DNA of 64,000 nucleotides, from assembly GCA_003971905.1 (NCBI GenBank), contig RSEE01000020.1, forward strand, positions 310,001 to 374,000. Reading direction: 5' to 3'. The notes beneath the pieces are model-generated. The model was given only the letters and a program-made list of their open reading frames with translations. It had not been told where the DNA came from and searched no databases. Positions 34,614 to 39,900 of the stretch are shown here, one piece after another (the first letter of the stretch is position 1; each line of letters begins with the position of its first letter). The position numbers and the translations under genes are program-made. The stretch is from Moniliella sp. 'wahieum'. Taxonomy: Eukaryota.

Positions 34614-35165
34614 TTACTTCTTCTTGTTGTCCGATGCCTTGTTCTTGGCGGTGCCGAAGAACTTCTTGGCGCGTTCTTGCGCTCCTTCCTGAGCTTGCGA
34701 CCGGCGCCCTCAACCTTCTCGGCGAGACCCGAGCGGACGAGGCGGAACTTGGGCTCGAACTTCTTCTGGGCCTCGGCCGAGTCGTAGATCAGAGCAAAGC
34801 CAGTGGTGCGGCCGCCACCAAAGTGGGTGCGCAGGCCAAAGGTAACCACCTGCTCAGCGGGCGCCTTGTATAGCGCGCCAAGCTTCTCCGACAGCTCAGC
34901 ACGGCTCACGTTCGGGCGAGCGGGGTGGATGACCTCGAGGACGCACTGGCGGCGCTGGAGGAGAGCGTTACGCATAAACTTGCGCGTGCGCAGCGTCACT
35001 GGAGAGTTGGGGTCCTGGGAGCCCAAATTGTCAGTCATCCGCTCCATCCTGCTGTCTCTGTGGAGAGCCGGGCAACAGAAGGTCCGGGAACACGAGAGCA
35101 TCGCGCGCGCGACGTTCCGACATGGGTGCCCTCGACGCAGACCGACTGGGCATGCAACGTACCAT
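34614..35165 (-). CDS. RPS24: 40S ribosomal protein S24 (eS24); intron 35015-35162; indel near the 3' end
   Basis: [60 protein letters not shown]. Confidence 0.97.
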
Positions 35166-35525
35166 CTTGAGTGCTTGGTGGAGACAGGCCGGTGCTACGA
35201 GAGGCCGAAGCGGTGGCCATGCCTGGGCAAGTCTAGGGTTCAACGCTTATTCTAAAAAACTCGCCGCAGCCACCTCTAGTTAGGGTTGCCCTACCGCCAG
35301 CTGTCACATGTCAGGGTTATCCAATACGTTGTCTCTCGCATCAACCAGCGGCTCACGTGATGCGTGCGCGTGATCCAACGCTACAAAGACAGAATGCAGG
35401 CACCGGTGGCGATGTCCTTGTCCCTGCCACAGCAATCTAGCTACCGCCATTCACATCACTAGTCATTGCCCAGCCGCTCAACCTCGCGCTTTCATCCCGG
35501 TATGGTACAAATGGACCCAAAAGGG

Positions 35526-36334
35526 CTAGACAAACTTGACACCTTCTCCGCCCGACAAGCCCTGATCGGCAGTAAAAATCTGCGCACGCCCCGATTTAGT
35601 CAAGTCGTTCAGTGCGGCGCGCAGCAGCGGCAGGGGAAGGTTGCGATGTTCTGTGAGCAACCAAGCAGTCAGTACGGATGAGCCAGCAGAGGATGAGGGC
35701 AGAGACGGCGGCTTTGGACTTACCAGTGGTCTGGACATGTGGCCCCTCCGTGAGCTCAAAAAGAGTCATGATCGACTTGTTTTGGCCAGTTTCCTTTACC
35801 TGCCGGGGCGAGACCAAGCGAAGCGGGTCAGCAACAAGGGTAGAAAATGGTAGCAGTGACAGAAGACGTACCCAGTTGTAGATGATCTCCCCCCACTCTT
35901 CTGGTCGGCGCCAGAAGATCCAGAAGCGGGTAGCATCGTCCTTGGCCTTCTTTCCGGTAAGAATCGGGCCGCGGCCGTCATCCCACGCGGCCTGACCTGA
36001 CTGAACCAGATGGGCAGCAATGACGCGGGCAAATGCCGGGTTAATACGGCGGTTGATGGTCTGGTTGAAGAACAAGTCCGATCCAAGCGTCAGACCGCCT
36101 TGTCGCTGTTCGTTTTCAGCAGGAGGTGCCTCGGTCAAGTTCCACGTAAAAGGCGCGGTGCTGTCGCGCATAACTCAAGATCAAGTTGGTCCAGGCATCG
36201 AGTTGAGCGCTCGCCGTTTCAACGTGGGGCTGAGGAGTGAAAAAAGGAGGGAAAGAGTAGAGGCTGGGCCAGACAAAGCTCGAGGGGCCGGTGGGGGCGG
36301 CAACACGCGGGAAAGCAACAGATGGTTGGGACAT
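35526..36334 (-). CDS. VPS25: ESCRT-II subunit Vps25; two introns in the 3' half; indel ~36125
   Basis: FVWPSLYSFPPFFTPQP (PPxF/Y motifs), W..LILSY, LFFNQTINRR, IFWRRPEEW..IYNWV.ETGQ..SIMTLFEL, C-terminal GVKF. Confidence 0.93.
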
Positions 36335-36350
36335 CCGAATCGTAAGCTGA

Positions 36351-36533
36351 TCAGGGACGGGAGGCAGGTGGGAACCCGAGTGCGGCTCTGCGACGGGGGG
36401 ATGAGAGTAGAGCAATGGTTACGCACGACACGACAAAGGTGACGAAGCGGAAGAAGGCACGGCGAGACACGGCACGTTCCTCCTCAAGCGTACGGGCTGC
36501 GCTGAATATGCGCCGCAAGTTGGGGAAGGCCAT
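36351..36533 (-). CDS. 60-aa single-TM microprotein immediately upstream of VPS25
   Basis: MAFPNLRRIFSAARTLEEERAVSRRAFFRFVTFVVSCVTIALLS has an amphipathic basic N-terminus, a charged helix and a hydrophobic segment. It resembles small fungal proteins I recall but cannot name. Confidence 0.55.
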   Translation of the reverse strand: MAFPNLRRIFSAARTLEEERAVSRRAFFRFVTFVVSCVTIALLSSPRRRAALGFPPASRP

Positions 36534-36964
36534 ACGCTTGGCCCTGTGGGCGATACAGACGATGTGCGAACGGCGGGCGATGGAGCAGCCGCAGAGCGAG
36601 TGGTAGGCGCAGGAGGCGCTTTGGCTACCTCGCTCCCCCAAGATAAGGGGGGCCTGCCAGGGCCTGCCTCCTAAGGCCCAAGGGCGCTCGCTGCCCATTC
36701 CGCCATTCCGCCCCGCGGCAGGCCAAGGGCAGGCTTTCTGAAATGGACGAACCGGGGGGAGGCCCTGAAAAGACATGGCCGTATTCATTTCCTCTTTCTT
36801 CTATCGTCAGCTCTGGGAGAAACAACAGATGGCATTCGTCTCTACCTCTCGATGGGCCACAACAGTAAAGGGAGACGTCATGGATGATGGGAAGATGGGT
36901 TGGCAAACGCAGGGCTAAAACACGGAGGACATCACACGATGACACGGCCAGATGTTCTCGTCCA

Positions 36965-39900
36965 TCAACGTTTGGAATGGAGGAAAATGCACATGCGATG
37001 CCTGCTCTGTTCCTGCTCAAGGCAAAAGCCGCCGGAGCGATTCAGAAGCGGTGGAAGATCGACTAGCTGGCACAGTCGGCGTAGGCCGCTTGAAGGCCAA
37101 TCCGCCCTGTGCCGCGGCAAGGTGGGAGACCGATGAACGACACTGCTCTCCCCCTCATTCGAAGGGCGATTTTCCTCGGCTTCCCATTGTGGCCCAAGCT
37201 CCTGTCCTTCTTGTGGGGTGGCCAAGCCGGGACCGGCAAAGGGGGTGCTGCTAGCCAGCCCATAGTTCTCTGCTGCAATCGCCGATCCAGAGACCGATGT
37301 TGCCGGACCCGAGACCGATGCCAAGGCCAATTGAGCAGCCGCTCTGGGACCCTTGGCAGAGATGGAAACTACGCTGTGCGCCGCACTTGCCGTCGAACGT
37401 CCCGAATGGGAACGAGCGCCAAAGGAGCCTGGGGTACTCCCTGGGTTGGACAGCTTCCGCTTGCTCTGCTTCGACCGACTGTGCGGGTGCACGACATGGG
37501 ATGGGACTGGGGACCCCGACGGCACACCTGCCGTTCCTGTCTCTGTTACTGCCGCGCTTAGGGCCTCGCCTCCCGAAGCGAGCACGCCAATTTGAGGGGA
37601 AGGCAAGGACCCCGACTGTGGGGCCCGACCGAGTGTACCCATGTTCAACGATCTCGGCCTCGATCCCAAACCAAGAGGAGAGGCAGATACGCCCACATCC
37701 GACACAGCTGGCGGCAGTGCTGAAGCTGGCGACGACGAGAAAGGGTTGGTGACATCAGCTGGGATGGAGCTCACCCTGGCGCGACGGGGGATCGGGACGG
37801 CTACTGCGGCGGTGGCGCCATCAGGTGCGAATCGCACCGAGGGAGACCGGTTCTGGCGGCAATCAAAAGCTGCTAGTGGGGCAGAGACAGGGCGCAAAGA
37901 AGGGGGCGGCCCACGGTGTCCAGAATCCCGCCACTGGAAGTGCCACCACCTTGGTTTGCCGCTATGGCTGCTCCCGGCGAGGTACCGGCGCTCCTCGAAC
38001 CAGGCGAGGAGGCTCTCAGGCCCACTGCGCCCACTCCTGCAGGATTGGTGAATCTTCTGGACAAGTTGGGATGTACCTCCGCGCGCGAGTCATCCATGGG
38101 CGCACTCGCCACGGGTGTAACAGGATCCGGGATTTTGGGCTCCAGTTCAGGTGTGGAGACGACATGGGACAGTGGCTGGGGGGGAAGTAGCGGGCTGAGG
38201 AGGAGGAGCCACCCGGGATCCCAAAGGTGGTGTCGTTCGTGGTCGAGGCGGTGGGCTTGCGCGTGTCGCCTGCCCCGGTGCTGAAGGAATAGAGGGGGTA
38301 GACGGTAATGCAGTGGCTGGATTCGATGGGGCGTGGTACTCCACCGCATCCAGAACATAGTATGTAAGCCCTATCGGGAGACGGAAGGGGTTCGTCATAA
38401 CTGTCTCGAAGTCGTCAGGATGAGTGGGGGATGCATGGGATGCGGCCGAGTCGTCGTTGGCGGGTACCACCACCAGAGGCTCGGCCGAGCCAGCAGTATA
38501 GACTGCCACTCGGGTCACGCGCGCCACAAGCCAATGTTTCCCATGGACGAGGGAGGCCGTGTGCGCGGCACTTTCTTCCGGCCCAGCTGAGAACTGGGGA
38601 GGCAGGGTGTTCAAAAAGTGGTGCGGCGCGGAGACGTTAAACGCAGCCCAGGACGGAGCCGTGGAGGGCGGCCCGCCCGTGTTAGAGTCACGCGTAGGAA
38701 GAAGAGAGCCAAATCACCGGGAAGGAACGAGGTAAAAGCTAGATGATCGCCATCTGGCCGAGTGAAAAACGGTCGAGCATGAGCAGGAAGCGCATGCACA
38801 AGGGCCCGACTCGATGAGATGGGCTGGGGAATGGATGTCGTGGGAGGCGGTAGGGAAGTACCGGCGCCCGCGGCACCCAAGTTACCTAATGGCGTGGTAG
38901 CGGCTGCCCCACTACGTGTGCGCACGCGGTCGAGATTGTCCTTGACCGAACGGTAGGCCTTCGTCCACTTCTTTACTACTCGCACCAGGCTCTCTAGCTT
39001 GACCTTTGCCTCAGAGGAGATAGTCGACGGAGTAAAGACAGCGTACACATGTCCCAGCGCCAACTCGAGATCGAGCAAATCTTGATCCATAGCGCCAAAG
39101 TCCAAGTGCCCGTCCCCTAACACACGGTCAGGGGCAGTCATCACGCTAGCCTTGTCCACTGATTCGGTGTCCCACCGATCTTTTTCATATGTCCGTCCTC
39201 GAGATGGCGAAGATAGGGGCTTGCGTTCATCCGAATGTGTGGCAGCCAAAGACTTTGCACCAACCGGCCTTCGACCGGTTTCGGGAGTAGAGAGAACCCT
39301 GAACCGGGGATGGCCGTCAACGTAGCAGAGGTAAACGGTTGGTGCGTGACTGGGACCGACCTCGGCGAGAATGCGGGAGAGCTATGTTTACCCAAGGAAG
39401 CAGGCCCACCAGTGTTGTGGTTCCGGCGAGAAACATCCGCCGCCGATTTGGAGCGTGGGCCACAACCAACGAGGTATCCTTCGCGGGCATAGTCTGAGCA
39501 GCAGCTGGCACGCCATCTTGGGTGCAAGGGCCACCAAGGCTGTAATTAACTCCTGTGACGCCGCGTCCTGAGCGTGATCTAGCTTGGCGTCCTCTCCGCT
39601 TGAGGGCGCGCCAGATGTGGAAACCAGACCATCTCGCGATGGAGAGGTTGCTGTGGACGCTGGGGCCATAGAGGAATGCGCTGAGGCCCGACTCGCCAGC
39701 GCGGGCATGGCCAAGAGTGCTGCTCGGACAGCTAGGAGAGAATGTGCCCACTGAGCTGATGCTGATAGCAGCGCTATGTACCGTTCATTTGCCGTTGCCG
39801 CCGCCGTATCTGCAGCCTGCCTTGCCCGCTCGGCAGAGTCTACGCGGCGAGTTAACTGGACATGGTCTTCGTCGGCAGCCGAAAGTTGCGCCCTCAAAGC

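What the first reader, a model, noticed from the sequence alone, without database searches (positions are those of the whole stretch)
36334..36533. Microprotein ORF 16 nt upstream of VPS25: candidate bicistronic mRNA or conserved-peptide uORF
Seen: a 60-codon ORF with a protein-like helix plus TM segment stops at 36351, and the VPS25 ATG is at 36334 on the same strand, leaving no room for a terminator and promoter. Established: polycistronic transcripts have been reported in basidiomycetes, and peptide uORFs can couple translation. Inference: an unannotated small membrane or mitochondrial protein co-expressed with, or regulating, the ESCRT-II subunit.
Basis: partly seen in the sequence, partly recalled or inferred. 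Interest (0 to 1): 0.7.

Follow-up and report, generated by a model that had tools for sequence, protein, structure and literature searches.

The report
Known EMR1 gene abutting VPS25
The small reading frame is this fungus's EMR1/MCO6 gene, a known mitochondrial outer-membrane microprotein, and it ends only 16 bases before the unrelated VPS25 gene, so the two probably share one transcript, though no RNA was available to show it.

Summary
A 60-codon ORF (36533-36351, minus strand) stops 16 nt before the VPS25 ATG, with an identical spacer in a second collinear genomic copy. The peptide is not new: it is Emr1/Mco6 (Pfam PF17237, 69 bits against a cut-off of 25), the only EMR1 found per copy, so a real gene and not a mere regulatory uORF. 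The gap is too short for two separate transcripts. The first TGTA 3'-end motif after EMR1 lies behind VPS25, which modestly favours read-through to a shared end. Whether VPS25 is translated from that mRNA or from a start site nested in EMR1 is open; no RNA run was listed. Leaky-scanning signs are mixed: the EMR1 AUG has C at -3 (10 of 10 control starts have a purine) and sits in an 11-bp stem, but the VPS25 AUG is equally weak and the lack of internal ATGs is expected by chance. The pairing was not seen elsewhere: none in 55 distant VPS25 loci, and another neighbour is annotated in Kalmanozyma; close relatives could not be tested. Verdict: a plausible lineage-limited bicistronic locus of two known genes.

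The parts
36351..36533 (-). EMR1/MCO6 orthologue, 60 aa, no intron; helix plus TM (about residues 26-44) plus basic tail; C at -3 of the AUG
   Evidence: Pfam PF17237 69.2 bits, cut-off 25; homologues 67-96% identical; only two genomic hits, C20 and C22; context
36335..36350 (-). 16-nt spacer between the EMR1 stop and the VPS25 ATG
   Evidence: identical in the C22 copy
35872..36334 (-). VPS25 exon 1; one extra base near 36140 shifts the frame in this copy only (probable assembly error); C at -3 of the AUG
   Evidence: Pfam PF05871 on both pieces; tblastn with P0132 changes frame here; C22 copy open through this point
35800..35871 (-). VPS25 intron 1, 72 nt (GTACGT ... CTGAC ... CAG)
   Evidence: sequence; inferred, no cDNA
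35724..35799 (-). VPS25 exon 2
   Evidence: aligns with the KETGQNKSIMTLFEL block of P0132
35651..35723 (-). VPS25 intron 2, 73 nt (GTAAGT ... CTGAC ... CAG)
   Evidence: sequence; inferred, no cDNA
35526..35650 (-). VPS25 exon 3 with TAG stop; ends in GVKFV
   Evidence: C-terminus resembles the GVKFF of P0133 and P0134
35506..35509 (-). First TGTA motif downstream of the EMR1 stop (about 840 nt on); candidate shared 3'-end signal
36485..36540 (-). Predicted 11-bp stem (36540-36530 pairing with 36495-36485, one G-U) that buries the EMR1 AUG and its -3 base
   Evidence: noticed after the fact; no covariation data
36534..36964 (-). Presumed promoter and 5' leader shared by both ORFs (at least 430 nt after the upstream gene)
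   Evidence: low coding score; start site not mapped; inference

Best explanation
EMR1 and VPS25 form one transcription unit in this lineage. A promoter upstream of 36533 makes an mRNA that carries EMR1, runs through VPS25 and ends behind the VPS25 stop. Ribosomes that start at the weak EMR1 AUG make the 60-aa mitochondrial outer-membrane protein. Those that scan past it meet no other AUG until the VPS25 AUG 199 nt on. The two proteins act separately (ERMES/SAM at mitochondria, ESCRT-II at endosomes); the link is one of expression, probably left by a local rearrangement or deletion. Shown here: both ORFs, their identity, the 16-nt gap in two copies, the AUG contexts. Inferred: the shared mRNA, leaky scanning, and the protein's location.
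For: The 16-nt gap compares with median leaders and 3' UTRs of 105 and 127 nt in Cryptococcus (PMC7049704) and 68 and 141 nt in Coprinopsis (PMC12230235), so any EMR1 mRNA almost surely contains the VPS25 AUG. TGTA lies within 200 nt after the stop in 8 of 9 control genes, against 1249 of 4100 random windows (P about 5e-4). It is absent after the EMR1 stop until 16 nt past the VPS25 stop, in both copies. The EMR1 AUG has C at -3, whereas 10 of 10 control starts have a purine (background 53.5%, P about 0.002). There is no ATG between the two starts. The layout (short first ORF, mitochondrial product, short spacer) matches algal bicistronic loci (PMC11291117).
Against: There are no RNA data for or against. 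The lack of an internal ATG is expected by chance: 65 of 303 coding windows lack one, as do 14832 of 20000 synonymous recodings. The VPS25 AUG also has C at -3. A pyrimidine at -3 is implied for 10 of 21 callable Emr1 homologues, so the weak context is not specific to this linkage. Lack of TGTA is normal for coding DNA (43 of 303 windows have one), and the upstream gene has none within 400 nt of its presumed stop either. In mushroom fungi, genes on polycistronic RNAs are also transcribed on their own (PMC4503453). The linkage was not found in other fungi.
Confidence: 0.45

Rival explanations
1. Nested, 3'-coterminal transcripts. The long mRNA spans both ORFs but yields only Emr1. VPS25 is made from a second start site inside the EMR1 coding sequence, whose pyrimidine-rich 3' half acts as its leader.
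For: Fits the gap and the shared TGTA equally well. The EMR1 3' half and the VPS25 start are 67-72% pyrimidine. Downstream genes of Agaricomycete polycistronic units are also transcribed independently (PMC4503453).
Against: Needs a promoter inside a strongly conserved ORF (25 invariant columns in 9 sequences). Does not explain the weak, stem-buried EMR1 AUG. TM-coding DNA is pyrimidine-rich anyway.
Confidence: 0.3
2. Two overlapping monocistronic mRNAs. EMR1 is polyadenylated inside VPS25 exon 1, and VPS25 starts inside EMR1.
For: Exon 1 of VPS25 has a U-rich stretch near 36260-36230. One of 9 control genes has no TGTA near its stop.
Against: No TGTA or TGCA in the 200 nt after the EMR1 stop in either copy. 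Same-strand UTR overlaps are uncommon in Coprinopsis: 1517 of 1738 overlaps are convergent (PMC12230235).
Confidence: 0.12
3. Reinitiation or peptide-uORF control. Ribosomes finish Emr1 and restart 16 nt later, or the nascent Emr1 peptide gates VPS25 translation.
For: Very short spacer and UGA stop. 80S reinitiation on bicistronic mRNA can be selected in yeast (PMC11952965 abstract).
Against: The peptide's conservation is explained by its own mitochondrial role (PMC7822926). It is not found beside VPS25 in 55 other loci, and it is annotated next to another gene in Kalmanozyma. Reinitiation after 60 codons is usually poor (recalled).
Confidence: 0.07
4. Alternative splicing. A cryptic intron (GTACGC at 36493 to CAG ending 36388) removes the EMR1 core and, by my count, puts the EMR1 AUG in frame with VPS25.
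For: The sites exist and the frame would fit in the window copy.
Against: GTACGC is not followed by consensus branch points more often than random sites (CTGAC 0.024 vs 0.023), unlike GTACGT (0.142). The only branch candidate is CTCAT (0.049 vs 0.028). An in-frame fit has a 1-in-3 chance.
Confidence: 0.03
5. Assembly artefact. A lost stretch or indels create the short gap, or the true sequence is one fused ORF.
For: The assembly has many one-base indels (158 gap bases in one 10-kb block between the copies).
Against: Both copies share stop, spacer and ATG. No Emr1-VPS25 fusion among 116 representatives (43-178 aa) or 3 longer hits. The closest homologue is also 60 aa.
Confidence: 0.03

Closest known systems
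Emr1 of Schizosaccharomyces pombe (SPAC8C9.19) / Mco6 of Saccharomyces cerevisiae (YJL127C-B), Pfam PF17237
   Same: About 60 aa with one central TM (S. pombe 21-43, here about 26-44) and a short C-tail; Pfam score far above cut-off; MDM10 and MMM1 family genes are present in this genome.
   Different: Neither paper's passages that I read mention a bicistronic arrangement. This copy has no intron, whereas several fungal homologues appear to (insertions in P0020, P0036, P0125; my reading). Location and function were not tested here.
Green-algal bicistronic loci read by leaky scanning (TOM22-SDHAF3, OST4, PET100 examples; PMC11291117)
   Same: Short first ORF, often mitochondrial; short spacer (medians 183 and 40 nt); weak first AUG; no AUG before ORF 2.
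   Different: Those are shown by long reads and ribosome profiling and many are conserved. Here there is no RNA evidence, the second AUG is also weak, the AUG depletion is not significant, and conservation was not found.
Polycistronic transcription units of Agaricomycetes (PMC4503453)
   Same: Basidiomycete tandem genes on read-through RNAs; the first ORF lacks 3'-end signals.
   Different: There the ORFs are of similar size (256 vs 277 aa), 364 nt apart on average, and are also transcribed independently. Here ORF 1 is 60 aa and 16 nt away.
Conserved-peptide uORFs such as CPA1/arg-2 AAP (mentioned in PMC8573964, and PMC12230235)
   Same: A conserved short ORF just upstream of a main ORF.
   Different: A CPuORF stays with its main ORF and acts in cis. 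Emr1 is conserved without VPS25 and has a trans function.

Membership tests
Emr1/Mco6 (PF17237) | Profile score above the curated cut-off | tested here: met
   69.2 bits vs 25, E 2.8e-19, model 1-42 of 44
Emr1/Mco6 (PF17237) | About 7 kDa with one central TM segment and a short C-terminal tail | tested here: met
   60 aa; hydropathy peak at residues 26-44; S. pombe TM 21-43
Emr1/Mco6 (PF17237) | Sole orthologue in a genome that has ERMES genes | tested here: met
   2 matches of 3 candidates, one per collinear copy; MDM10 and MMM1 family hits; only best candidates are scored
Emr1/Mco6 (PF17237) | Mitochondrial outer-membrane location; binds ERMES or SAM/Mdm10 | not testable with these tools
   Known for the yeast proteins only
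VPS25 (PF05871) | ESCRT-II subunit profile with the PPFFT-Q motif over the full length | tested here: met
   55.7 and 73.5 bits vs 27 on the two frameshifted pieces; about 220 aa by my exon count, U. maydis 232 aa
Bicistronic mRNA read by leaky scanning | One mRNA covering both complete ORFs | not testable with these tools
   Needs RNA reads; only the indirect TGTA pattern is available
Bicistronic mRNA read by leaky scanning | No independent transcript of ORF 2 | not testable with these tools
   Needs 5'-end mapping
Bicistronic mRNA read by leaky scanning | Weak ORF 1 start context | tested here: met
   C at -3 vs purine in 10 of 10 control starts; but also common in Emr1 homologues, 10 of 21
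Bicistronic mRNA read by leaky scanning | AUG depletion before ORF 2 | tested here: inconclusive
   None present, but chance is 21-74% depending on the null
Bicistronic mRNA read by leaky scanning | Conserved pairing in relatives | tested here: inconclusive
   Absent in 55 distant loci, none above 59% identity; different annotated neighbour in Kalmanozyma; no DNA of close relatives
Conserved-peptide uORF | Peptide conserved together with the same downstream ORF | tested here: not met
   Emr1 is conserved across fungi but was not found beside VPS25 in any of 55 other loci
Conserved-peptide uORF | Sequence-dependent control in cis | not testable with these tools
   Needs a reporter assay

The most novel reading that the evidence does not exclude
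An obligate fungal bicistron. VPS25 has no promoter of its own here and depends on ribosomes bypassing a weak, stem-buried EMR1 AUG, so a mitochondria-ER contact regulator and an ESCRT-II subunit are made in a fixed or switchable ratio. More boldly, EMR1 may serve as a first cistron for different partners in different smut-related lineages, as the fused Kalmanozyma gene model hints.
Probability: 0.25. Interest if true: 0.65.

Novelty: new member of a known kind. Interest (0 to 1): 0.36.

Why it matters
Fungal polycistronic RNAs described so far are mostly read-through products of genes that also have their own promoters. A pair of ancient housekeeping genes 16 nt apart would be a natural candidate for an obligate, algal-style bicistron in a basidiomycete, and a simple test case for leaky scanning in fungi. 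It also matters for annotation: gene finders are likely to miss this ORF or merge it with a neighbour, as the 820-aa Kalmanozyma model suggests. The protein itself is not new.

Tried and rejected
RNA: the run search for 35450-36800 listed none, so no reads were laid; this is 'none listed', not evidence.

First metagenome scan with the Emr1 alignment: 288 pattern matches, none confirmed.

VPS25 search for named close relatives, to compare locus tags: 4 hits of 42 candidates, none a named smut-related species, so synteny in Tilletia, Meira or Ceraceosorus could not be read.

The 17-residue N-terminal extension of P0137 (a relative's VPS25) looked as if it might encode an Emr1 tail in the shifted frame. 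It scores no better than chance: P 0.38-0.69 at DNA level and 0.22-0.63 against four Emr1 tails. Rejected.

One weak Emr1 hit near a VPS25 locus (L022, E 0.011) lies inside another long ORF on the opposite strand. Rejected.

Unsupervised estimate of the start context from 464 kb gave only 12 doubtful starts and no usable consensus; replaced by hand-picked small genes.

Cryptic intron: not supported. Rfam over 35000-37700: 0 matches. The spacer region folds no better than shuffles (z 0.40). dN/dS was not computed: the two copies differ by one synonymous change in the core and one replacement in the tail (my reading), and no homologue DNA was available. No complex or structure prediction was run; nothing suggested that the two proteins bind.

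Earlier findings of the scan: nothing on this protein or on such pairs.

Full report
Observation. On the minus strand an ATG at 36533 opens a 60-codon frame ending in TGA at 36351. Sixteen bases later, at 36334, an ATG opens VPS25 (Pfam PF05871). A relative's VPS25 (P0132) starts at the equivalent Met. VPS25 has two introns with consensus sites, 35871-35800 and 35723-35651, and stops at 35526. The window copy carries a one-base frameshift near 36140 that a second copy on contig C22 lacks. That second copy is collinear over about 40 kb, mostly at 91-97% identity, and has the same stop, spacer and ATG. Both copies have scattered one-base indels, so single letters are uncertain, but neither fuses the two frames (199 and 197 nt from ATG to ATG).

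What the small ORF is. It is Emr1/Mco6: 69.2 bits against a cut-off of 25. The first homologue search gave 9 proteins of 10 candidates at 67-96% identity, the named ones from Tilletia, Ceraceosorus, Meira and Violaceomyces. A profile search gave 116 representatives of 43-178 aa. The genome search finds two matches among three candidates, one per copy, and MDM10 and MMM1 family genes are present. In S. pombe, Emr1 is a mitochondrial outer-membrane protein with a TM at 21-43 that binds Mdm12 and Mdm34, and budding-yeast Mco6 rescues its loss (PMC7822926, passages). Mco6 also joins the SAM complex with Mdm10 (10.1101/2023.02.03.527057, abstract). So the ORF is the organism's ordinary EMR1 gene; its function here is inferred from the family.

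Is the gap unusual? Yes. VPS25 to RPS24 is 360 nt. The upstream gene (ATG17-like domain; ATG11 by my reading of its C-terminal motifs, recalled) ends at least 430 nt before EMR1. I scanned ORFs of 85 codons or more downstream of 10 other small-gene loci (81 frames). A same-strand gene was identified in 2 of 10, at about 467 nt (PET100 to an OST3/6 gene) and about 620 nt or more (LYRM2-like to BCAS2). One had a convergent gene, and 7 had none that Pfam named. Median leaders and 3' UTRs are 105 and 127 nt in Cryptococcus (PMC7049704, passages) and 68 and 141 nt in Coprinopsis (PMC12230235, passages). Two non-overlapping mRNAs therefore do not fit.

One mRNA? No run was available, so this is indirect. 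TGTA (a 3'-end motif, role recalled) occurs within 200 nt after the stop in 8 of 9 control genes, against 1249 of 4100 random windows (P about 5e-4). I placed the stops by eye and left out three genes whose stops I could not fix. After the EMR1 stop the first TGTA lies behind VPS25 in both copies. Against this: only 43 of 303 coding windows hold TGTA, so its absence in VPS25 exon 1 is the default, and the upstream gene has none near its presumed stop. I weigh this as a modest push towards read-through.

How would VPS25 be translated? For leaky scanning: the EMR1 AUG has C at -3, whereas 10 of 10 control starts have a purine (OST4, PET100, PET117, two TOM7, three LYR genes, MIM2, RPS24). I chose these starts by eye and dropped a second MIM2 whose start was ambiguous, plus duplicate copies. 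A purine at -3 marks the Cryptococcus consensus, and leaky scanning is widespread there. The EMR1 AUG also sits in a predicted 11-bp stem: 13 of 4000 random ATGs reach 10 Watson-Crick pairs, 69 of 4000 reach 11 pairs with G-U, and no control start exceeds 7. The whole-window energy is less striking (8.8% of GC-matched windows fold as well), and the feature was noticed after the fact. Against: the VPS25 AUG also has C at -3. The absence of internal ATGs is no signal (65 of 303 coding windows; 14832 of 20000 recodings). Among 130 homologues, 28 had a residue before the start Met; one was misparsed, 6 were ambiguous, 11 imply a purine and 10 a pyrimidine at -3. That sample is biased towards extended gene models. 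A start site nested in EMR1 explains the geometry about as well, and in Agaricomycetes the genes of polycistronic units are also transcribed independently (PMC4503453, passages).

Conservation of the pairing. A metagenome scan gave 55 VPS25 loci of 570 pattern matches, none above 59% identity; they look mostly ascomycete by my reading. Of these, 44 hold more than 500 nt upstream of the match. An Emr1 profile found no credible hit in any of the 55 (best E 0.011, inside another ORF). All 24 spiked exon-sized fragments were detected, but they came from proteins used to build the profile, so sensitivity is overstated. Among longer proteins, 3 hits of 8000 scored candidates appeared. One is a Kalmanozyma brasiliensis model that fuses Emr1 to a metallopeptidase-jacalin protein, whose homologues lie on other contigs here. 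This suggests a different downstream neighbour there; the distance is unknown. No DNA of close relatives was reachable, and a hint from the N-terminal extension of P0137 failed its tests. The linkage is thus not pan-fungal, and its depth within smut-related fungi is unknown. This is what sinks the conserved-peptide uORF reading.

Comparison with what is known. The locus works like the algal bicistrons, where ORF 1 is short, often mitochondrial, has a weak AUG and lies a median 40-183 nt from ORF 2 (PMC11291117, abstract and sections 6 and 16). Membership is not shown, since the defining RNA features were untestable. Reinitiation on bicistronic mRNA can be selected in yeast (PMC11952965, abstract). 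I found no report of an EMR1-VPS25 pair. 'Mco6' with 'bicistronic' gave 0 papers. The listings showed none. The main text of the yeast bicistron survey has no VPS25 or MCO6 (PMC8573964, passages), and the Vps25 family paper's passages discuss animal synteny only (PMC1579232). I opened no supplements, and the library lacks most subscription papers.

Verdict. Two known genes are packed 16 nt apart. A shared mRNA read by leaky scanning is the most likely mechanism (0.45), nested transcripts come next (0.30), and overlap, reinitiation, splicing and artefact trail. New member of a known kind; interest 0.36.

Noticed in passing
window 36540-36485 (-): An 11-bp inverted repeat pairs the EMR1 leader and AUG with codons 13-16; rare among ATGs (13 of 4000). 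It could damp initiation, or be chance.
   Followed up: partly
window 36533-36351 (-): EMR1 has no intron here. Several fungal homologues show insertions after the LRRIF block or after the AFF block that look like unspliced introns (P0020, P0036, P0125, P0062).
   Followed up: no
window 36788, 36776, 36698 (-): Three upstream ATGs with G at -3 are in frame with EMR1 in this copy (a 145-aa ORF). Homologues start at 36533, so these probably lie upstream of the start site.
   Followed up: partly
window about 42900-34300 (-): Four genes in tandem on one strand: ATG11-like, EMR1, VPS25, RPS24. No TGTA lies between 37700 and 36557, so the ATG11-like transcript may also run long.
   Followed up: partly
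window 35165-35020 (-): RPS24 appears to start with an ATG directly followed by a GTACGT intron; telo-box-like AACCCT motifs lie upstream (label recalled).
   Followed up: no
P0011 (Kalmanozyma brasiliensis PSEUBRA_002801): The public 820-aa model joins a complete Emr1 to a metallopeptidase-jacalin protein; probably a merged annotation of two tandem genes.
   Followed up: partly
G000 C32, C4, C51, C125, C43, C16 (TOM7); C2 twice, C94, C130, C138, C50 (MIM2): TOM7 and MIM2 each give six matches, whereas EMR1, OST4 and PET100 give two. This suggests extra paralogues or more than two genome copies in the assembly.
   Followed up: no
L002 (C22) EMR1 tail and VPS25 exons: The second copy has its own one-base deletions in EMR1 codons 47-58 and in VPS25, at other places than the window, consistent with unpolished long-read errors.
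   Followed up: yes
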